Below are positions 4,695 to 38,150 of a DNA stretch of 64,000 bases, in pieces (the stretch's first letter is position 1; every line of letters starts with the position of its first letter). Source of the stretch: an uncultured Actinomycetes bacterium (GTDB lineage: Bacteria > Actinomycetota > UBA4738 > HRBIN12). The stretch spans positions 403 to 64,402 of the forward strand of contig CAWGFO010000010.1 of NCBI GenBank assembly GCA_963821925.1. Direction: 5' to 3'. The translations under genes and the position numbers were made by a program. The notes beneath the pieces are model-generated. The model saw nothing but the letters and a program-made list of their open reading frames with translations. It made no database searches and was not told the origin of the DNA.

Positions 4695-5498
4695 ATGGCT
4701 CGAGCACAATGGCGTCGCAGCGCGTTCCTTGTGGTGGTCGCGTCGGCCACCGCCGCCGCCCAGGACGCTTTCGAGATTCAGGTCTACGACGCGCGGACGG
4801 CGGCTCCGGGCCAATCGGTGCCGAGTTCCACCTGAACCACTTCTTCGTCGGGAGCACCAGCTTCGAGGGCCCAGAGCAGCCGACCAATCATGTCACCCAC
4901 CTCACCTTCGAGCCCCACATCGGCCTGGCCGATTGGTGCGAGGCGGGGGCGTACGTCTCCACCGCGGTCCGCGCCAGCGGCACCTTCGACGTCGCGAGCC
5001 TCAAGCTGAGATTCAAAGCCCGGTGGCCTACGCGGCTCTGGGGGCGGCTCGGGCTCGCGCTGAACCAGGAACTGTCGGCCACCCGGCTCGACTACGAGGC
5101 GAGCGGGTTCGCCTGGGAGATTCGCCCTGTCATCGACTTCGAGTGGAGGCGGCTGGTACGTCTCTGCGAACCCCATCGTCTCGGTGCCGTTGGGGGGGCC
5201 CGACAAGGGCAGGCCTGAGCTCGAGCCCTGCGCCAAGGTTGCCATCCGCGCACTCGAGATCCTCTCTGTCGGGGTGGAATACTACGGCGCGCTCGGGCCG
5301 ATCGCCCGTATGGATGCCCCCGCGTCCCAGGTTCACCGGCTGTTCGGCGCGCTCGACTTCGACTGGCGGTCGGGCCGCCGACTGTTCGAGCTCAACCTCG
5401 CTCTGGGTTACGGCCTGTCAGGCGCCGAGCGGTCGATCGCCAAGGCGACTGTGGCGTTCGACGTGGAGCCAGAGCCACCCAGGCCCTCGGGGCAGTGA
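4695..5498 (+). pseudogene. Secreted beta-barrel-like protein read across three frames (at least two frame changes, near 4805 and 5175).
   Basis: Signal peptide MARAQWRRSAFLVVVASATAAAQDAFEIQVYDARTA in one frame (ATG 4695). It continues as …AEFHLNHFFVGSTSFEG…FEWRRLV in the frame of ORF 4655..5218, then as …PLGGPDKGRPELEPCAKV…ATVAFDVE in the frame of ORF 5184..5498. A G7 homopolymer lies at the second switch. Confidence 0.45.
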
Positions 5499-12047: not shown

Positions 12048-12824
12048 TCATGCCTTGGAGCGCAGGATGTCTTCGAGGCGCTTCGCCATCTGTGGACTCG
12101 CCCCTTCGTCCTCGTGCTTGAAGTAGCAGAAGACGTCGGCGCCGCCGGCGAGCGCTGTGCCGATCCGCTCCGCCCACGCCGCGAGCTCGTCGTCCGTGTA
12201 CTCGGTCTTGCGCAGACGGAAGTAGCCGGCGGGGTCCCACGAGATCTCCTCGGGCGTCGGGTCCTTCTCGTCGGTCTGGGCCACGCACCACGCGACGCCC
12301 TGGTCCCGCAGCAGGTCCCGCGCCTCGAGCCAGGAGGCGTGACGGAACTCCATCGCGAACCGCGGGTTCCCGTTCCCGGTCGGGGGGAGGTACCCGACGA
12401 AGCCCTCGATCAGCGCCCGGTCGTAGTGCAGGTTCGGCGGGCACTGGAAGAGCACGCACCCCAACCGGTCGCCCAGGGTCTTCGCGCGCTCCAGGAAGTC
12501 GCGGACGTCGTCGTCGCAATCCTTCAGCCGCCGGGAGTGCGTGATGCGCTGGTTCGCCTTCAGCGTGAAGACGAATCCGGGACGCGCGCGGTCGCGCCAG
12601 GTCGAGAGGGTCTTCTCCGTTGGGAACCGGCGGAACGTGTAGTTGATCTCCACCGACGACAGCTGCGACGAGTAGTAGTCGAGCATGTCGTCCTTCTTGA
12701 GGTCCTCCGGGTAGAAGACGCCGTGGCGCCACTCGTCGTAGGCGAATCCCGACGTCCCCAGGTAGAAGCTGCCGACCATGGCGTGCATCATCGCATGCGT
12801 GCCGTCGCTCGACGTCGCAGGCAT
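12048..12824 (-). CDS. DUF72-family protein (YecE-like).
   Basis: …FYLGTSGFAYDEWRHGVFYP… and …YYSSQLSSVEINYTFRRFP… match the DUF72 signature. Confidence 0.8.
   Translation of the reverse strand: MPATSSDGTHAMMHAMVGSFYLGTSGFAYDEWRHGVFYPEDLKKDDMLDYYSSQLSSVEINYTFRRFPTEKTLSTWRDRARPGFVFTLKANQRITHSRRLKDCDDDVRDFLERAKTLGDRLGCVLFQCPPNLHYDRALIEGFVGYLPPTGNGNPRFAMEFRHASWLEARDLLRDQGVAWCVAQTDEKDPTPEEISWDPAGYFRLRKTEYTDDELAAWAERIGTALAGGADVFCYFKHEDEGASPQMAKRLEDILRSKA
12776..12804. repeat. 29-bp direct repeat copy 1 (ccatggcgtgcatcatCgcatgcgtgccg).
   Basis: Matches 14519..14547 at 28 of 29 positions. It lies inside the 5' coding end of the DUF72 gene (minus strand). Confidence 0.85.
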
Positions 12825-12839: not shown

Positions 12840-13904
12840 CTATGAGCCCGGGCTGCAAGCAGGGATGTCGCTCACGCGGGGCAGTCGCTGGATCCACATC
12901 TCTCCGTCGATGCGGCGCACGAGATAGACCTCGTCGTCGAACGTCAGTGGGTCGACCCACAACTGGAAGAGCCGGCTGTGGTAGCCGGTGAAGACGGCGC
13001 CCGGAGGGAGGACCGTGAGCGGTGTGTACGGCACCGCGCTCCGGTCGGCCCAGGAACCCTGCGGATCCGCGACGTACACGCGTTCGACCTCCGCGCCCGT
13101 CGGCTCCGTCCCGAGTGGGTCGATCAGCTGAAGGATCGTCGGCGGCCATCGCCGACAATCCGGCATCCAGAACGTGGAGAGCGTGGCGGGCGCCAGGGGC
13201 CGGCCGTCAGGGCCGTACCACGGAGTTGGCGGGACGATCGTGCCGCCGGGGCTCGTCGGGCCACCTCTATCGAGGATCCCCGGCGCTACCTCGACGGTTC
13301 CCGGGCCGCAGAAGGCGTCCGGATCCGCGTGGTCATGCGCGCCTCTCGGCGAGGGCGCTCCCAGCTCGTAGGGACGGACCTGGACTTCGCCGTCCGAAGT
13401 GACGCGGCTGGGCACGGGAAACATGCCGGAGGATGCGGGGCCGGTCATGTACTCGCCGTGATCGTCGAACTGGGCTCCGTGCTCCAGCTCCCTGAACCCA
13501 CCGAACGGTCGGCAGTACCGCAGTTTCTCCTCCACCCCGTACGGGGAATGGGGAGACACGGCCGAGAGGGCGTAGGGCTCTCCCCCTTGATCCGCGACGA
13601 CGAAGACCTCCGCCTCCGCGAGGTACACGACTCCCTCCGTCGAAAGGTCGGCGATCGACCCGGCATCGACCCACTCCCCGGCCACCGACGTCGCCGGCGG
13701 TGGCGCGATCGAGCCATCGGAGGCGGGACGACGCGAGGCGAAGGCCGCAACGATGACGGTGACGAAGACCGCAGCGATGGCGATCGCACCGACCTTGCGG
13801 CGACGCGCCACGCGACGCTGCCTGCGGATCTGTCGGTCGAGCGCGTCGGGCACGGCGGGCGCCTGGCGGCTCACCGTTTCGAAGAGTTCCTTCATGTCAG
13901 GCAT
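12840..13904 (-). CDS. Putative anti-sigma factor or membrane protein, with one TM segment after a short cytoplasmic N-terminal segment and a large extracytoplasmic domain.
   Basis: Immediately downstream of an ECF sigma gene with a 10-bp gap. …VGAIAIAAVFVTVIVAAFA… is a TM segment. There is no family-level match. Confidence 0.5.
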   Translation of the reverse strand: MPDMKELFETVSRQAPAVPDALDRQIRRQRRVARRRKVGAIAIAAVFVTVIVAAFASRRPASDGSIAPPPATSVAGEWVDAGSIADLSTEGVVYLAEAEVFVVADQGGEPYALSAVSPHSPYGVEEKLRYCRPFGGFRELEHGAQFDDHGEYMTGPASSGMFPVPSRVTSDGEVQVRPYELGAPSPRGAHDHADPDAFCGPGTVEVAPGILDRGGPTSPGGTIVPPTPWYGPDGRPLAPATLSTFWMPDCRRWPPTILQLIDPLGTEPTGAEVERVYVADPQGSWADRSAVPYTPLTVLPPGAVFTGYHSRLFQLWVDPLTFDDEVYLVRRIDGEMWIQRLPRVSDIPACSPGS

Positions 13905-13913
13905 GCCGACCCC

Positions 13914-14366
13914 TCACATCGTTCTCATCGCGGCCCGCCCCTGCGACGCGAGGACACGGACGGTCGTCGCACGGATGCCGAGGATCGAGCCGGCCTGCGC
14001 CGAGTCGTAGCCGATGATCTCGGTGAGCACGAGCGCGGCGCGCTGGCGCGCCGGGAGCGCCGCGAGCAGGCGACGGACGTCTTCGCGCAGCTCGATCTCG
14101 TCGAACGGATCCCTGGCGTGCACGGTCGGCAGCGCGCGGCGGGTGGCCGCCTTGGCGCGGCGCAGCCGCGTGCGGAAGCCGTTCAGGGCCACGCGGAACA
14201 GGTAGGCGGTCGGGTCGTCGATCCGGTCGATCCGGTCCCACCGTTCCCACAGTTTGACGAAGGCTTCCTGGGCGAGATCCTCGGCCTCGTCGGCGCTCCC
14301 GGTGATGAAGAACAAGGCGCGGTAGAGGAGGTCGTGCTGCTCGAGGAAGAACTCCTCGAAGCTCAT
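13914..14366 (-). CDS. ECF-type RNA polymerase sigma-70 factor.
   Basis: Region 2 (…LYRALFFITGSADEAEDLAQEAFVKLWERW…) and region 4 (…LTEIIGYDSAQAGSILGIRATTVRVLASQGRAAM…). The ORF extends to 14426, but MSFEEFF at 14366 is the more plausible start. Confidence 0.8.
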   Translation of the reverse strand: MSFEEFFLEQHDLLYRALFFITGSADEAEDLAQEAFVKLWERWDRIDRIDDPTAYLFRVALNGFRTRLRRAKAATRRALPTVHARDPFDEIELREDVRRLLAALPARQRAALVLTEIIGYDSAQAGSILGIRATTVRVLASQGRAAMRTM

Positions 14367-14518
14367 CGGCGCCGCTCGCGGGTCCCGTCTCCGGTCCGAC
14401 GCCACGCCTTGCCCTCCGATCACCATGACCCATGGACGCTACGGGGGGTGCGTTCGTTTAGGCCGCCGTCGGATCCGCACAGCTCAAGGGCCGCAGGCGG
14501 ACGCGTGCCTATTGCCCG

Positions 14519-14547
14519 CCATGGCGTGCATCATGGCATGCGTGCCG
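14519..14547. repeat. 29-bp direct repeat copy 2 (ccatggcgtgcatcatGgcatgcgtgccg).
   Basis: Matches 12776..12804. It supplies the start codon and first nine codons (MACIMACVP) of the hydrolase gene. Confidence 0.85.
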
Positions 14548-15210
14548 ACACCCGAGGAACGCCTCACGATCGACGTGCCCGACGCGGGCCTGGTCAGCGG
14601 CGCCTACGCGCGACCCTCCGGGGCCGACCGCACGATCGTGGTCGCGCACGGCGCCGGCGCCGGGATGGACCACCCGTTCATGGTGGGCTTCAGCCGGGCG
14701 ATGAACGAACTCGGCGTGGCCACGCTCCGGTTCAACTTCCCGTACATGGATGCGGGTCGCCGCAGCCCCGACCGCCAGCCGGTCGCGGTCGCGACGTGGC
14801 GTGCGGCGTTCGACGTCGCGGTCGCACGAGCGCCCGGGGGCGAGCCCGTCTGGGCGAGCGGCAAGTCGTTCGGCGGGCGGATGGCCTCCGTCGCGGTGGC
14901 CGAGGGGATGCCGGCCGCCGGGCTCGTGTTCCTCGGGTACCCGCTGCATCCTCCGGGCAAGCCGGAGCGCGTCCGAGACGAACACCTGTACGCGATCGAG
15001 ATCCCGATGCTGTTCCTGCAGGGCACGAAGGACCCGTTCGCCACCCCCGCGGTGCTGGCGCCGGTGATCGAGCGCCTGGGCGCTCGGGCCACGCTGCACG
15101 CGATCGATGGCGGCGGGCACTCGCTCGAGCGGTCCCGCAAGGACGACCCCCGCGAGACGGGCGCCGCGCTCGCGCCGATCGCCGCCGGCTTCATGCGGGA
15201 GGCGCGCTAG
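14521..15210 (+). CDS. Alpha/beta hydrolase (dienelactone-hydrolase-like small hydrolase family).
   Basis: …IVVAHGAGAGMDHPFM…ASGKSFGGRMAS…LQGTKDPFATP…IDGGGHSL matches an alpha/beta-hydrolase topology with a GxSxG-like nucleophile elbow. Confidence 0.7.
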   Translation: MACIMACVPTPEERLTIDVPDAGLVSGAYARPSGADRTIVVAHGAGAGMDHPFMVGFSRAMNELGVATLRFNFPYMDAGRRSPDRQPVAVATWRAAFDVAVARAPGGEPVWASGKSFGGRMASVAVAEGMPAAGLVFLGYPLHPPGKPERVRDEHLYAIEIPMLFLQGTKDPFATPAVLAPVIERLGARATLHAIDGGGHSLERSRKDDPRETGAALAPIAAGFMREAR

Positions 15211-15508
15211 ATGCCGCGGAAGAACCGGCGCAACCCCGAGTTCTTCACGCCGCCCGAGGCGCCCTCGACGCCGTCGAGGGGCGCCGACACGCCCATCTGG
15301 GCCCAGGCGCCCGGCTACGAGGTCCGCGGCGTGGGCGGCCAGAAGGAGTACCGGTGCCCGGGTTGCGACCACATGGTGCGCGCCGGGATCGCGCACCTCG
15401 TGGTGGTGCCCGACCGACGACGTCGACGCCCGCCGCCACTGGCACACCGAGTGCTGGAAGCGCGAGCTCCGCCGCCTCGGGCTCTACCGCGCCCCGACGG
15501 TCGAGTAG
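15211..15508 (+). CDS. Small basic zinc-ribbon protein (Cys-x2-Cys … His/Cys), conserved hypothetical. It has one frame change near 15417.
   Basis: MPRKNRRNPEFF…YRCPGCDHMVRAGIAHLVVVP in the frame of 15211, followed by TDDVDARRHWHTECWKRELRRLGLYRAPTVE* in the +1 frame. Dropping one base in cccgaCcgacgac would restore a single ORF. Confidence 0.5.
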
Positions 15509-15551
15509 ATCGCCGACCCGAACGCAGGAACGTGTCGGCGCGCTGGCTACG

Positions 15552-15734
15552 ATGCCCGACATGGAGCCGTCGACCGTCACCGAGCGCGAGCAGCGCGCCG
15601 ACGCCGCGACCTGCATACCGATCACCGAGTCGAAGCGTCTGCCGTGCGATCTGTGCGGACACCCGATGGAGCCCGAGCACGCCCACTACCGGTGCCCCTC
15701 CTGCCACTACATCCTTCCCTGCTGCGGCTGGTGA
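15552..15734 (+). CDS. 60-aa Cys-rich zinc-ribbon-like protein.
   Basis: MPDMEPSTVTEREQRADAATCIPITESKRLPCDLCGHPMEPEHAHYRCPSCHYILPCCGW carries two CxxC pairs. It is embedded in a 918-aa antisense artefact ORF and its reading frame is only moderately supported. Confidence 0.35.
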   Translation: MPDMEPSTVTEREQRADAATCIPITESKRLPCDLCGHPMEPEHAHYRCPSCHYILPCCGW

Positions 15735-15783
15735 CCGAGCGACCGGTCCCGGGACTGGCGCGGCCTTGCGACGCCGTCATACG

Positions 15784-16197
15784 ATGCCGCGCATGGCGTT
15801 CGAGGCGCGGGCACGCATGTGGGAGGCCGGGGGCCGTTGGTACGCGCGCATCCTCGACGCGCCCGCCTACATCGAGGTGACGGGGATGAGCCGTCACGGG
15901 TGCCTCCAGGAGCTCCGCAAGGTCACGGGCGACGACGTCACGCTCACCGTCGACGTGATCCCCGCGATCGTCGGCGTGGCCGAGGCCGCCGAGATCATGG
16001 GATGGGACAAGCGCCGCGTGATCACCTACATCGACCGCGGGTCGTTCCCCGAGCCGATCACCTCGCTGGCCTCGGGTCGGATCTGGCTCCGCGAGGACGT
16101 CGAGGCGTACGCCGCGGACTGGCGCGTGCGGCACCCCGCGAAGCCACCGACGCCCGTCAGCGAGCCCACCGCGGTCCCCGCGAGGCCGACCGCGTGA
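15784..16197 (+). CDS. HicB-like (UPF0150 fold) N-terminal domain fused to a C-terminal helix-turn-helix DNA-binding domain; antitoxin-like regulator.
   Basis: …MWEAGGRWYARILDAPAYIEVTGMSRHGCLQELRKV… resembles the HicB pattern. …VAEAAEIMGWDKRRVITYIDRGSFPEP…GRIWLREDVEAY is an excisionase/MerR-type HTH. Confidence 0.5.
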   Translation: MPRMAFEARARMWEAGGRWYARILDAPAYIEVTGMSRHGCLQELRKVTGDDVTLTVDVIPAIVGVAEAAEIMGWDKRRVITYIDRGSFPEPITSLASGRIWLREDVEAYAADWRVRHPAKPPTPVSEPTAVPARPTA

Positions 16198-16841
16198 CCC
16201 AGCGCCTCTACCTGATCCGCCACGGCCAGGCCGACTACACCTCTGACGCGCGCCTCCCCACCTCCCGGGGGGTCGCGTTCGACCCGCCGCTCTCGGTCAC
16301 CGGCCGCGAGCAGGCGGCGGCTCTGGCCGAACGGCTCCGACACCTCACGCCTCCCGCCGCCGTCTACTCGTCCACGCTCGCCCGCGCGCGCGAAACGGCC
16401 CACGCCTACGCGGACCCGGCGGGCATCGAGGTCGTCGAGCGGGAGGACCTCTGCGAGTGGTACGGCGGGGGATGGGAGTTCAAGGACTTCTCGCAGATCT
16501 TCGACGAGCATCCCGATGCGCGGCACCTGTTCCGCACCCAGCAGCCGGCATGGCACCTCGCGCCCGAGGCCGAGACCGGCTCCGACTTCGCCGCGCGCGC
16601 CCGGGCCGCGATCGAGGCGGTGCTGGCCGAGCATCGCGAGGGCGACCTCTACCTGTTCGTCCACGGCGGCGTGATCAACGCGTTCCTCGCTCCGATCCTC
16701 GGGATCCACGGCCAGGAGATGTTCTTCCTGCCGGCGAACACCAGCATCAACACCGTGCTGGTCGAGGGCGACGAACGCCGCGCGTGGTTCCTGTCCGACG
16801 ACGCGCACGTGACGAACCCCGAGTGGTTCGAGCACGGCTGA
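16194..16841 (+). CDS. Histidine phosphatase family protein (phosphoglycerate-mutase-like).
   Basis: LYLIRHGQADYT… (RHG catalytic motif) and …TLARARETA…FVHGGVINAF. The GTG start overlaps the upstream stop (GTGA). Confidence 0.8.
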   Translation: MTQRLYLIRHGQADYTSDARLPTSRGVAFDPPLSVTGREQAAALAERLRHLTPPAAVYSSTLARARETAHAYADPAGIEVVEREDLCEWYGGGWEFKDFSQIFDEHPDARHLFRTQQPAWHLAPEAETGSDFAARARAAIEAVLAEHREGDLYLFVHGGVINAFLAPILGIHGQEMFFLPANTSINTVLVEGDERRAWFLSDDAHVTNPEWFEHG

Positions 16842-16929: not shown

Positions 16930-17313
16930 GTGATGGCCGTCAAGTTCCTCTCACCCGAATGGGCCGCCGCCCTGACGACCGAGCTCAACGCCAACGCGGC
17001 CTTCCATGAGGCATCGGCCGGCCAGCGGGCGAAGATCCAGCAGATCATCACCGGCAGCGACGAGACGCACTACTGGATCACCTTCGACGACGGCACGATC
17101 GACATGGGCGTCGGCGACCTCGAGGCTCCCGACGCGACGATCACGCAGAGCTACGAGACGGCCGTCAAGCTCGCCAAGAGCGAGCTCTCGGCGGTCACCG
17201 CCTTCATGACGGGCAAGATCAAGATCGGCGGCAACATGGGGCTGCTCCTCGGGCTCCAGGGCGCGCTCACGCATCTGCCCGCCGCGATGGAGAAGATCGA
17301 GGTCGAGTACTAG
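16930..17313 (+). CDS. SCP2 sterol-binding domain protein.
   Basis: …FMTGKIKIGGNMGLLLGLQGAL… matches the typical SCP2 C-terminal signature. Confidence 0.75.
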   Translation: MMAVKFLSPEWAAALTTELNANAAFHEASAGQRAKIQQIITGSDETHYWITFDDGTIDMGVGDLEAPDATITQSYETAVKLAKSELSAVTAFMTGKIKIGGNMGLLLGLQGALTHLPAAMEKIEVEY

Positions 17314-38076: not shown

Positions 38077-38150
38077 TGCGGGGTGGAGCAGTCCGGTAGC
38101 TCGCTGGGCTCATAACCCAGAGGTCACAGGTTCAAATCCTGTCCCCGCGA
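38077..38150 (+). tRNA. tRNA-Met (anticodon CAT) with initiator features. No genomically encoded CCA.
   Basis: Cloverleaf read directly: acceptor tgcgggg/ccccgcg, D-stem gagc/gctc (A11:U24), anticodon stem ctggg/cccag with three consecutive G:C pairs next to the loop ctCATaa, T-arm acagg-ttcaaat-cctgt, discriminator A. Closely resembles actinobacterial tRNA-fMet. Confidence 0.85.

What the first reader, a model, noticed from the sequence alone, without database searches (positions are those of the whole stretch)
15211..16197. Compact block of three small genes: a Zn-ribbon protein, a 60-aa CxxC…CxxC protein and a HicB-like–HTH fusion, translationally coupled to a histidine phosphatase
None of the three has an established function. 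The third combines a HicB-type antitoxin fold with an excisionase/MerR-type HTH, an architecture typical of toxin–antitoxin or phage-defence regulators, yet no HicA-like toxin is present. The only candidate partner is the Cys-rich mini-protein. The block sits just downstream of the repeat-bracketed sigma/anti-sigma module and is in operonic contact (GTGA overlap) with a histidine phosphatase. This could be a non-canonical TA-like or signalling cassette.
Basis: inference. Interest (0 to 1): 0.5.

Follow-up and report, generated by a model that had tools for sequence, protein, structure and literature searches.

The report
Conserved small-gene neighbourhood, not toxin–antitoxin
The three small genes are real and keep their order across an uncultured group of Actinomycetota, but they are separate, vertically inherited units built around a very conserved DNA-binding protein that is translationally coupled to a phosphatase, so this is not a toxin–antitoxin or defence cassette.

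Summary
The genes exist, with corrections. Gene 1 (15211-15508) belongs to the Rv1322 family of CCHC zinc proteins. In this assembly it is broken by one extra C (15409-15411). Gene 2 (15561-15734, 57 aa) is a real zinc-ribbon mini-protein under purifying selection, present in only 43 of 73 related genomes. Gene 3 (15793-16197) models as a βββαβ domain with a HicB-like fold plus a MerR/excisionase-type winged helix. No HicB sequence profile matches it.

Gene order is conserved in about 80 species-level genomes, all uncultured Actinomycetota by lineage. The block splits into three units:
- α/β-hydrolase→gene 1, stop and start overlapping or abutting in 57 of 74 junctions.
- Gene 2, with its own leaderless-type promoter.
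- Gene 3→histidine phosphatase, with an RTGA overlap in 73 of 84 junctions.

Gene 3 has a conserved leaderless-type promoter. It carries a locus-specific palindrome, GACRNYGTC(ATAC).

Evidence against a toxin–antitoxin reading:
- There is no HicA.
- There are no full-length relatives on plasmids or viral contigs.
- No defence-model hit is meaningful (two matches at E about 1e-3, both on the winged helix).
- Base composition is native.
- Gene 3 is as conserved as any gene in the neighbourhood (median 74%).

The most likely reading is that gene 3 is a self-regulated transcription factor controlling its coupled phosphatase. Interest is modest.

The parts
14425..15210 (+). Alpha/beta-hydrolase (Pfam Abhydrolase_11), the upstream partner of gene 1. 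Its true start is probably ATG 14522.
   Evidence: Pfam 166 bits. Its stop overlaps or abuts the start of the Rv1322-family gene in 57 of 74 distinct junctions. Relatives are 222-227 aa. A 43-nt repeat covers 14513-14555.
15211..15508 (+). Gene 1: Rv1322-family (PF27609) CCHC zinc protein, 98 aa when intact. It is frameshifted in this assembly.
15409..15411 (+). CCC run carrying one extra base, the site of the frameshift in gene 1.
   Evidence: Alignment with L006 shows GTGCCCGACC in the window against GTG-CCGACC. L006 encodes an intact 98-aa PF27609 protein.
15548..15553 (+). TACGAT, a -10-like hexamer 7 nt before the gene 2 start codon (leaderless-type promoter).
   Evidence: All 31 distinct gene 2 upstream regions listed show a TANNNT-like hexamer 7 nt before the ATG/GTG that opens M-E/D.
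15561..15734 (+). Gene 2: 57-aa zinc-ribbon mini-protein (alternative start 15552, 60 aa). Its C-terminal 35 residues are nearly invariant: ESKRLPCDxCGxPMEPEHAHYRCPxCxYILPCCGW.
   Evidence: 127 homologues. Invariant residues are listed. Variable columns by codon position are 13/9/32, and codon differences are 436 synonymous against 155 non-synonymous. Present in 43 of 73 related genome loci, always between gene 1 and gene 3.
15770..15782 (.). GACGCCGTCATAC: a conserved locus-specific element whose first 9 bases form the palindrome GACRNYGTC. It abuts and overlaps the -10 of gene 3. Candidate operator.
   Evidence: It occurs once in the window. The full 13-mer is in 55 of 83 distinct upstream regions and nowhere else in 759 kb of related loci. 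The palindrome is in 63 of 82 regions, against 0.045 expected per 110-bp window.
15780..15785 (+). TACGAT, a -10-like hexamer 7 nt before the gene 3 start codon (leaderless-type promoter).
   Evidence: A TANNNT hexamer ends 6-9 nt before the start codon in 77 of 82 distinct upstream regions (0.006 expected). A Shine-Dalgarno-like core is present in only 1 of 82.
15793..16197 (+). Gene 3: 134-aa DNA-binding protein (alternative start 15784, 137 aa). In the 137-aa numbering used here, residues about 6-58 form a βββαβ domain with a HicB-like fold and residues about 62-116 a MerR/excisionase-type winged helix-turn-helix.
16194..16841 (+). Histidine phosphatase (His_Phos_1, PGAM/CobC-like), translationally coupled to gene 3 by a GTGA overlap.
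   Evidence: Pfam 147 bits. NCBIfam hits are all below their cut-offs, so the substrate is unassigned. The RTGA overlap is conserved in 73 of 84 distinct junctions.
16930..17313 (+). SCP2-domain protein, the conserved downstream neighbour and possibly part of the same transcript.
   Evidence: Pfam SCP2 50.6 bits. It follows the phosphatase in essentially all related loci and lies near the gene 3 homologue even in the distant locus L088.

Best explanation
The block is a stretch of vertically inherited core chromosome of an uncultured Actinomycetota lineage. It holds three separate expression units, not one cassette.

**Unit A.** An alpha/beta-hydrolase is translationally coupled to an Rv1322-family CCHC zinc protein (gene 1). 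Gene 1 is probably a nucleic-acid-binding zinc finger. The frameshift here is most likely a homopolymer error of the assembly.

**Unit B.** A facultative 57-aa zinc-ribbon mini-protein (gene 2) is expressed from its own leaderless-type promoter. It is one of several occupants of a variable gap.

**Unit C.** A leaderless-type operon opens with gene 3 and is translationally coupled to a PGAM-type histidine phosphatase, probably continuing into the SCP2 gene.

**Proposed mechanism (inferred, not shown).** Gene 3 is a transcription factor. It binds the palindrome-containing element GACRNYGTCATAC that abuts its own -10 hexamer, and so sets its own level and that of the coupled phosphatase. The N-terminal domain with a HicB-like fold would serve for dimerisation or for binding a ligand or partner.

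**Shown:** gene reality, folds, synteny, coupling, the promoter-like elements and the motif.
**Inferred:** DNA binding at the motif, autoregulation, and the role of the N-domain.
For: - **Synteny.** The order DUF72(-) / hydrolase / Rv1322 / [gene 2] / gene 3 / His phosphatase / SCP2 / thioesterase(-) / Bmp is kept in essentially all 80 genome loci.
- **Coupling.** Gene 3 and the phosphatase share an RTGA overlap in 73 of 84 junctions. The hydrolase stop and the gene 1 start overlap or abut in 57 of 74.
- **Own promoters.** TANNNT ends 6-9 nt before the gene 3 start in 77 of 82 regions (0.006 expected), and 1 of 82 has a Shine-Dalgarno-like core. Gene 2 shows the same arrangement.
- **Operator candidate.** The 13-mer is found only here: 55 of 83 upstream regions, 0 elsewhere in 759 kb, and once in the window. 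The palindrome is in 63 of 82 regions against 0.045 expected. It persists although the -10 hexamer sits at two different distances from it.
- **Core-gene behaviour.**
  - Gene 3 has median identity 74%, against 50% for the phosphatase and 51% for the thioesterase.
  - G+C is native at 0.70-0.75.
  - No relatives are found in viral contigs.
  - Only the winged-helix domain has relatives on plasmids.
- **Units are separable.** Unrelated genes are inserted between gene 1 and gene 3 in several lineages.
Against: - No experiment or transcript data supports any of this. The promoter and the leaderless start rest on conserved sequence only. The generic sigma-70 scan finds nothing, as expected for TANNNT-only actinobacterial promoters.
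- Nothing shows that gene 3, rather than another factor, binds the motif.
  - A 9-bp palindrome is short for a MerR-type dimer.
  - 19 of 82 upstream regions lack it.
- In four loci (L035, L049, L074 and L076) gene 3 follows gene 2 within about 20 nt, without the intergenic promoter. Co-transcription of genes 2 and 3 therefore occurs in some lineages.
- In the distant locus L088 the gene 3 homologue is not followed by a phosphatase, so that pairing is lineage-specific.
- Conserved order within one lineage may partly reflect shared ancestry and not function.
Confidence: 0.6

Rival explanations
1. Non-canonical toxin–antitoxin or defence cassette. Gene 3 would be a HicB-type antitoxin that neutralises the Cys-rich mini-protein or the zinc-ribbon protein in place of HicA.
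For: - Gene 2 is small, often lies 40-60 nt upstream of gene 3, and abuts it in four loci.
- PADLOC gives marginal hits (E about 1e-3), on the winged helix only.
Against: - Gene 2 is absent from 30 of 73 genomes that keep gene 3.
- Gene 2 and gene 1 sometimes stay apart from gene 3 across inserted genes.
- There is no HicA and no HicB sequence signal.
- Gene 3 sits at one fixed locus and is more conserved than its enzyme neighbours.
- It is absent from viral contigs, and no full-length copy is on plasmids.
- Composition is native.
- The gene order would be 'toxin' first under a separate promoter, with gene 3 coupled to a phosphatase instead.
Confidence: 0.04
2. Signalling or partner-switch module. 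The HicB-like domain of gene 3 would sense either a phosphorylated metabolite handled by the coupled phosphatase, phosphorylation reversed by that phosphatase, or the redox or zinc state of the 7-Cys mini-protein. That signal would gate DNA binding.
For: - The RTGA coupling of gene 3 to the phosphatase is strongly conserved, in 73 of 84 junctions.
- The N-domain has invariant polar residues E31, T33 and C40, with S36 nearly invariant, at the β3–α1 junction.
- Gene 2 has 6 invariant and 1 nearly invariant Cys, including a C-terminal CC.
- PGAM-type enzymes include protein and phosphohistidine phosphatases such as SixA (established knowledge). SixA is only a weak hit here (22.7 bits against a cut-off of 74.5).
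Against: - No kinase or sensor is conserved in the neighbourhood.
- The phosphatase evolves much faster than gene 3 (50% against 74%), with no sign of co-evolution.
- The phosphatase is absent next to the distant homologue.
- Gene 2 is dispensable in 41% of genomes.
- No complex prediction could be run.
Confidence: 0.15
3. Nucleic-acid maintenance neighbourhood. Gene 1 would be a PARP-type zinc finger that recognises DNA nicks or ends, working with gene 3 as an architectural DNA-binding protein of the BldC or excisionase kind, not as a classical regulator.
For: - The C-x2-C…H-x2-C ligand set is invariant.
- hhalign places the ligands in register with PARP-1.
- Rv1322 lies next to nucS (Rv1321) in M. 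tuberculosis (own knowledge). It is also listed among NucS network partners in 10.1101/2025.06.19.660520.
- BldC-like and excisionase-like folds match gene 3.
Against: - hhalign probabilities are 0.4-2%.
- No zf-PARP Pfam hit appears for any of 38 members.
- Genes 1 and 3 are separable units.
- No repair gene is conserved in the neighbourhood.
Confidence: 0.12
4. Gene 3 is the excisionase (recombination directionality factor) of an integrated element, and the small genes are cargo.
For: - HTH_17/AlpA-type similarity: JGI names some homologues 'AlpA'.
Against: - No integrase, attachment-site repeats or tRNA lies at the locus. The only tRNA is at 38077.
- The chromosomal context is identical in 80 species-level genomes.
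- Composition is native.
- The family is absent from viral contigs.
Confidence: 0.02

Closest known systems
HicB antitoxins of HicAB type II toxin–antitoxin systems (e.g. E. coli HicB; HicB-like structures 3k6q and TTHA1013/1wv8)
   Different: - No HicA partner is present.
- No sequence-profile similarity is found.
- The DNA-binding domain is a MerR/excisionase-type winged helix, not a ribbon-helix-helix or Xre type.
- The gene is at a fixed chromosomal position, highly conserved and not seen on mobile elements.
- It is coupled to a phosphatase gene.
Minimal MerR-like / excisionase-type DNA-binding proteins (Pfam HTH_17; BldC of Streptomyces; AlpA/Xis excisionases; TipAN)
   Different: - HTH_17 scores stay below the gathering threshold (17.9 against 27 bits).
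- The winged helix is C-terminal to an extra domain.
- There is no MerR coiled-coil or effector domain.
- There is no recombinase context.
Rv1322 family (Pfam PF27609), uncharacterised actinobacterial zinc proteins sometimes labelled 'ATP/GTP-binding protein'
   Same: Homologues of gene 1, up to 97% identical to the repaired protein, all carry the precomputed PF27609 assignment.
   Different: - The window copy is frameshifted.
- The family itself has no known function.
- The resemblance to PARP-type zinc fingers is only at the level of fold and ligand pattern.
Small stand-alone zinc-ribbon proteins (C-terminal ribbon of DUF3090/TIGR03847; archaeal COG2888/PRK14890/HVO_2753-type ribosome-associated zinc fingers)
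   Same: Gene 2 has the pattern CxxCG…P.EHA.H..CPxCG. Weak matches are TIGR03847 (best E 2e-4, 16 of 33 members), PRK14890 (E 0.013, 15 of 33) and PDB 6skf_Az (E 0.26).
   Different: - All matches are far below the family cut-offs.
- Gene 2 has an invariant C-terminal LPCCGW tail and an extra conserved Cys that these families are not known to share.
- Its range is limited to this Actinomycetota lineage.
PGAM/CobC-like histidine phosphatases (Pfam His_Phos_1)
   Same: The downstream gene is a clear member (147 bits, with the N-terminal RHG motif 'LIRHGQ').
   Different: No equivalog-level assignment is possible. The best NCBIfam hit, alpha-ribazole phosphatase, scores 92.7 against a cut-off of 162.9 bits. 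The substrate is unknown.

Membership tests
HicB antitoxin family | N-terminal βββαβ (partial RNase-H-like) HicB fold | tested here: met
   [not shown]
HicB antitoxin family | Significant sequence-profile match to HicB families | tested here: not met
   No HicB-type Pfam family at E<=1 for 44 members or 10 distant homologues. No NCBIfam hit. hhalign against E. coli HicB gives probability 0.3%.
HicB antitoxin family | Adjacent hicA toxin gene | tested here: not met
   Neighbours in the window and the related loci are the Rv1322-family gene, gene 2, the histidine phosphatase or lineage-specific inserts. Alternative ORFs have no Pfam hit.
HicB antitoxin family | C-terminal ribbon-helix-helix or Xre-type HTH DNA-binding domain | tested here: not met
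   The C-domain is a MerR/excisionase-type winged helix.
Type II toxin–antitoxin modules in general | Obligate two-gene pairing of toxin and antitoxin | tested here: not met
   Gene 2 is present in 43 of 73 loci that keep gene 3. When genes are inserted it stays sometimes with gene 1 and sometimes with gene 3.
Type II toxin–antitoxin modules in general | Patchy, mobile or multi-copy distribution with fast evolution | tested here: not met
   Same chromosomal context in 80 genome loci. Median identity 74%. None in viral contigs and no full-length copy on plasmids. Composition is native. Copy number per complete genome could not be counted.
Type II toxin–antitoxin modules in general | Toxicity of one partner, neutralised by the other | not testable with these tools
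   This needs expression experiments.
MerR family transcription regulators | Winged helix-turn-helix of MerR type | tested here: met
   [not shown]
MerR family transcription regulators | N-terminal position of the HTH, followed by a coiled-coil dimerisation helix and a C-terminal effector domain | tested here: not met
   The HTH is C-terminal (residues about 62-116). After helix 103-116 only a low-confidence tail follows.
MerR family transcription regulators | Operator palindrome inside an overlong (19-20 bp) -35/-10 spacer | tested here: inconclusive
   A conserved palindrome lies just upstream of, or overlapping, the -10. Where a TTGCGC-type -35 can be read, the spacer is about 18 nt (reading). 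The palindrome is only 9 bp.
Excisionase / HTH_17 (AlpA, Xis) | Pfam HTH_17 match at the gathering score | tested here: not met
   17.9 bits against a cut-off of 27 for the window protein. 43 of 44 members hit at E<=1, best 3.6e-5. One homologue carries a precomputed PF12728 assignment.
Excisionase / HTH_17 (AlpA, Xis) | Association with an integrase and attachment sites | tested here: not met
   No integrase in the conserved neighbourhood. No tRNA nearby.
Rv1322 family (PF27609) | Profile match to PF27609 | tested here: inconclusive
   The local Pfam copy gave no hit, so the model is apparently not in it. The precomputed annotation lists PF27609 for all 120 homologues, including one 97% identical to the repaired protein, and for the syntenic genes.
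Rv1322 family (PF27609) | Intact reading frame | tested here: not met
   A one-base insertion sits in the C run at 15409-15411 relative to L006. Sequencing error and real mutation cannot be told apart.
PARP-type zinc finger (zf-PARP) | C-x2-C…H-x2-C zinc ligands on the zf-PARP fold | tested here: inconclusive
   [not shown]
Histidine phosphatase superfamily, branch 1 | Pfam His_Phos_1 match and N-terminal RHG motif | tested here: met
   147.1 bits against a cut-off of 21.7. 'LYLIRHGQ' lies at the N-terminus.

The most novel reading that the evidence does not exclude
Gene 3 is a domesticated antitoxin. A HicB-fold domain has lost its toxin, been fused to a MerR/excisionase-type winged helix and been fixed as a core, leaderless, self-regulated transcription factor of a whole uncultured Actinomycetota lineage. 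Its HicB-like domain would now read a cellular signal: a phospho-metabolite or phosphorylation state set by the translationally coupled histidine phosphatase, or the zinc or redox state of the 7-Cys mini-protein. If so, the pair formed by gene 3 and the phosphatase would be a previously undescribed kind of one-operon sensor and effector circuit.
Probability: 0.12. Interest if true: 0.55.

Novelty: new variant of a known kind. Interest (0 to 1): 0.3.

Why it matters
As a toxin–antitoxin or defence candidate it does not hold up, so it should not be carried forward as one.

What remains is useful at a modest level:
- **A family definition for gene 3.** It is a HicB-like fold plus a MerR/excisionase winged helix, covering hundreds of sequences, none of which has a family assignment beyond an occasional HTH_17 hit. 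It comes with a predicted promoter, a candidate operator and a conserved translational partner. That makes it a directly testable regulator in a lineage with no cultured member among the genomes found.
- **Small proteins that are easily missed.** The 57-aa zinc-ribbon gene was left uncalled in one of the two related assemblies inspected that contain it (L003; it is called in L006).
- **An annotation trap.** A single homopolymer indel in high-G+C sequence creates a spurious 328-aa ORF that swallows three real genes. Similar chimeric ORFs are already in public protein databases.
- **A lead on Rv1322.** The PARP-type zinc-finger resemblance gives a first structural hypothesis for a protein family that M. 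tuberculosis also carries.

Tried and rejected
**Sequence and profile searches that found nothing useful**
- Pfam and NCBIfam scans of the single proteins gave only sub-threshold generic zinc-ribbon and HTH_17 hits.
- PDB sequence searches with profiles found nothing for gene 3. For genes 1 and 2 they returned only eukaryotic C2H2 or generic zinc-ribbon matches, driven by the CPxC knuckle.
- PADLOC gave two marginal hits, both on the winged helix.
- hhalign of the gene 3 family against E. coli HicB gave probability 0.3%. I did not build a full HicB profile, because the low diversity of the query (Neff 1.7) made a positive result unlikely.
- hhalign of the gene 1 family against PARP-1 zinc fingers gave the right register but probability of only 0.4-2%.

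**Searches for mobility, RNA elements or promoters**
- Viral contigs: none.
- Plasmids: only the winged-helix domain has relatives, in hypothetical proteins of Bacillus, Peribacillus and Streptomyces whose contexts were uninformative.
- Rfam on the whole window: one tRNA, far from the block.
- The generic sigma-70 promoter and terminator scan found nothing. I rejected it as uninformative for this organism type.

**Tools or records that were unavailable**
- The exact-protein look-up of the window's own gene 3 product was not on record.

**Literature**
- 'Rv1322' gave one incidental mention.
- 'PARP-like zinc finger' with bacteria, and HicB with orphan and excisionase, gave nothing relevant.

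**Ideas considered and rejected**
- Programmed frameshifting in gene 1. The shift is absent in close and distant relatives.
- Gene 2 as a RiPP precursor. It has no conserved modifying enzyme next to it. A radical SAM gene appears only in L088, where no gene 2-like gene was called.
Full report
**1. What is in the sequence**

The region has about 70-75% G+C, so mechanical ORFs abound on all frames. Three coding regions on the + strand are supported by homologues.

*Gene 1* starts at 15211 (MPRKNRRNPEFF…).
- After codon 67 the homologous reading continues one frame over, to TAG at 15506-15508. The two tblastn segments are 15211-15411 and 15410-15505.
- A Logan contig (L006) whose gene 3 is 97% identical has GTG-CCGACC where the window has GTGCCCGACC. 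It encodes an intact 98-aa protein.
- More distant relatives are also intact, at 96 aa.
- So the window carries a one-base insertion in a C run (15409-15411).
- As a side effect the frame of 15211 stays open to 16197. This gives a 328-aa ORF whose limits are exactly the coordinates of the finding.
- Similar chimeric ORFs, such as P0245 (348 aa) and P0316 (545 aa), exist in the public protein collection. This suggests that such indels are common in assemblies of this lineage. Whether the window's indel is an error or a mutation cannot be decided here.

*Gene 2* ends at 15734.
- Its first ATG (15552) is out of frame in L006 because of an extra A. The second ATG (15561) opens the conserved M-E… start.

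*Gene 3* ends at 16197 in a GTGA overlap with the GTG start of the next gene.
- Alignment of 44 homologues places the start at 15793 rather than 15784.

**2. Are they real genes?**

- *Gene 3* has 843 homologues at E<=1e-3.
- *Gene 1* has 134 homologues.
- *Gene 2* has 127 homologues.
  - Its last 35 codons exist in 47 distinct DNA versions.
  - Variable columns by codon position are 13, 9 and 32.
  - Codon differences to the window are 436 synonymous against 155 non-synonymous. That is clear purifying selection.
  - Its C-terminal half, ESKRLPCDxCGxPMEPEHAHYRCPxCxYILPCCGW, is almost invariant, while the N-terminal 15-25 residues vary freely.
  - Gene callers missed it in one related assembly. 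It is visible in L003 at 5311-5480 but was not called.

**3. What the proteins are**

*Gene 1*
- Every listed homologue carries the precomputed Pfam assignment PF27609 'Rv1322'.
- The local Pfam copy gives no hit, so it apparently lacks that model.
- Invariant residues include C49, C52, H78 and C81, plus W30, R74, R75, H76, W77 and W82.
The probability is negligible at 0.4-2%.
- This is a lead, not an assignment.
- Rv1322 lies next to nucS (Rv1321) in M. tuberculosis (my own knowledge). It appears once in the searchable literature, as an uncharacterised network partner of NucS.

*Gene 2*
- It gives only weak generic zinc-ribbon matches:
  - Pfam C1_2, E 2e-4, below threshold.
  - TIGR03847/DUF3090 C-terminal ribbon, best E 2e-4, in 16 of 33 members.
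  - PRK14890, E 0.013.
  - PDB 6skf_Az, E 0.26.

*Gene 3*
- The AlphaFold2 model (pLDDT 84, pTM 0.62) has β6-15, β18-23, β31-34, α37-48 and β52-58. These are followed by α65-72, α76-84, β93-95, β98-102 and α103-116.
- Foldseek agrees for the winged helix.
- At the sequence level only HTH_17 is detected, below its threshold. No HicB family appears for 44 members or for 10 distant two-domain homologues.
- hhalign against E. coli HicB is negative.
- 'HicB-type fold plus excisionase/MerR-type HTH' is therefore right as a description of the fold. Homology to HicB is not demonstrated.

*Downstream gene*
- It is a clear His_Phos_1 member with no equivalog-level assignment.

**4. Context in other genomes**

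- A scan of one genome per species found at least 172 stretches that encode a relative. The best 80 loci are all metagenome-assembled genomes of uncultured Actinomycetota or Actinomycetes. Two bins are labelled Alphaproteobacteria and Planctomycetaceae, which are probably binning errors.
- tblastn of the window's proteins shows the same order almost everywhere: DUF72(-), alpha/beta-hydrolase, Rv1322, [gene 2], gene 3, His phosphatase, SCP2, 4HBT thioesterase(-), Bmp lipoprotein.
- Median identity to the window:

| Gene | Median identity to the window |
|---|---|
| Gene 3 | 74% |
| DUF72 | 73% |
| Gene 2 | 72% |
| Rv1322 (gene 1) | 68% |
| SCP2 | 66% |
| Hydrolase | 62% |
| Bmp | 60% |
| Thioesterase | 51% |
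| Phosphatase | 50% |

- Gene 2 is present in 43 of the 73 loci that cover the region.
- The gap between Rv1322 and gene 3 is a hot spot for lineage-specific inserts:
  - a cNMP-binding protein;
  - a 1079-aa protein whose N-terminal sequence looks like an adenylate/guanylate cyclase;
  - an ORF that looks like an OmpR-type response regulator;
  - a 407-aa ORF that looks like a membrane protease with TPR-like repeats;
  - an ORF that looks like a GNAT acetyltransferase;
  - a glyoxalase-like ORF.

  Only the cNMP-binding assignment comes from Pfam. The others are my reading of the ORF translations.
- In a more distant lineage, L088, the gene 3 homologue still lies near Abhydrolase_11, Rv1322 and SCP2. 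There it is preceded by a radical SAM gene and followed by a T2SSE-type ATPase, with no phosphatase.
- The profile search of 1.84 billion representatives found 1575 hits. Beyond roughly the first thirty, they match only the winged-helix part.

**5. Expression architecture**

- The stop of gene 3 overlaps the start of the phosphatase by 4 nt (RTGA) in 73 of 84 distinct junctions.
- The hydrolase stop overlaps the Rv1322 start by 1 nt (TGATG) in 51 junctions and abuts it in 6, out of 74.
- Upstream of gene 3, a TANNNT hexamer ends 6-9 nt before the start codon in 77 of 82 distinct regions, against 0.006 expected. Only one region has a Shine-Dalgarno-like core.
- The same holds for gene 2, with the hexamer 7 nt before the start.
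- In actinobacteria this geometry is typical of leaderless mRNAs (established knowledge from mycobacterial transcription-start maps). I infer that genes 2 and 3 each have their own promoter and are translated without a leader.
- Next to or overlapping the -10 of gene 3 lies GACRNYGTCATAC (window 15770-15782).
  - It occurs once in the 64-kb window.
  - It is in 55 of 83 distinct upstream regions and never elsewhere in 759 kb of related loci.
  - Its 9-bp palindromic core is in 63 of 82 regions, against 0.045 expected.
  - The central base varies freely. In one locus both half-sites changed together (GACACTGTC).
  - The element is kept although the -10 hexamer sits at two different distances from it in different sub-lineages.
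  - This is what one expects of a protein-binding site and not of a mere promoter element.

**6. Interpretation**

The data describe two translationally coupled pairs, hydrolase→Rv1322 and gene 3→phosphatase, flanking a variable gap. The commonest occupant of that gap is the zinc-ribbon mini-protein.

Gene 3 behaves like a core regulator.
- It sits at one fixed locus.
- It is among the slowest-evolving genes of the neighbourhood.
- Its composition is native.
- It is absent from viral contigs, and no full-length copy is on plasmids.

The simplest mechanism is that it binds the palindromic element at its own promoter and so controls itself and the coupled phosphatase. Its N-domain would serve dimerisation or sensing. 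That step is inference.

The toxin–antitoxin reading fails on partner obligateness, distribution, rate of evolution, gene order and sequence signal. I give it about 4%. A signalling relationship between gene 3 and the phosphatase or the Cys-rich protein remains possible, at about 15%. A nucleic-acid role for gene 1 is a separate lead, at about 12%.

**7. Novelty and score**

- Nothing here is a new kind of system.
- Gene 3 is a new variant of a small winged-helix regulator, with an unusual N-terminal domain and no family assignment.
- Gene 2 is an unassigned mini-protein family.
- Gene 1 belongs to a named but uncharacterised family.
- Interest is modest (0.3). It lies mainly in the well-defined, testable regulator–operator–phosphatase unit and in the annotation lessons.

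Noticed in passing
window 12770-12812 and 14513-14555: A 43-nt direct repeat (86% identical, 1743 nt apart) brackets the sigma/anti-sigma pair at 12840-14426(-). In relatives the DUF72 and alpha/beta-hydrolase genes lie back to back, with their 5' ends adjacent or overlapping. The insertion therefore seems to have duplicated that shared 5' stretch, and the hydrolase probably starts at ATG 14522 rather than 14425.
   Followed up: partly
window 15409-15411; also proteins P0245 and P0316: A single extra C in a homopolymer run turns three real genes into one spurious 328-aa ORF (15211-16197). Public protein collections already hold similar chimeric read-through ORFs from related assemblies.
   Followed up: partly
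L003 5490-5912, L022, L049, L036/L053, L020, L046, L088 3836-4870: The gap between the Rv1322-family gene and gene 3 is a hot spot for lineage-specific insertions. The cNMP-binding protein (L003) and the radical SAM enzyme (L088) are Pfam assignments. The other inserts are named from my reading of the ORF translations: a large cyclase-like protein, an OmpR-type response regulator, a membrane protease/TPR-like protein, a GNAT and a glyoxalase-like protein.
   Followed up: partly
[not shown]
   Followed up: partly
window 15561-15734 (gene 2): Gene 2 has weak similarity to the C-terminal zinc ribbon of DUF3090/TIGR03847. From my own knowledge, those genes sit next to a histidine phosphatase of the MSMEG_4193 family in other Actinobacteria. 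It is also weakly similar to archaeal ribosome-associated COG2888 zinc-ribbon proteins. The invariant C-terminal LPCCGW tail is unexplained.
   Followed up: partly
L010 (CAVUII010000003.1) and L011 (JBLMXP010000116.1): Two genome bins labelled Alphaproteobacteria and Planctomycetaceae carry this neighbourhood, which is otherwise found only in Actinomycetota. L011 keeps most of the gene order. L010 covers only gene 3 and the genes downstream. Their gene 3 copies are 82-92% identical to the window's. These contigs are probably mis-binned.
   Followed up: no
window 15520-15553 and related loci: The region upstream of gene 2 carries a conserved GTGACGTCGG or GTGTCGGCG element about 20 nt before its -10 hexamer. 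Its GACG half-site resembles that of the gene 3 palindrome, so the two promoters might share a regulator.
   Followed up: no
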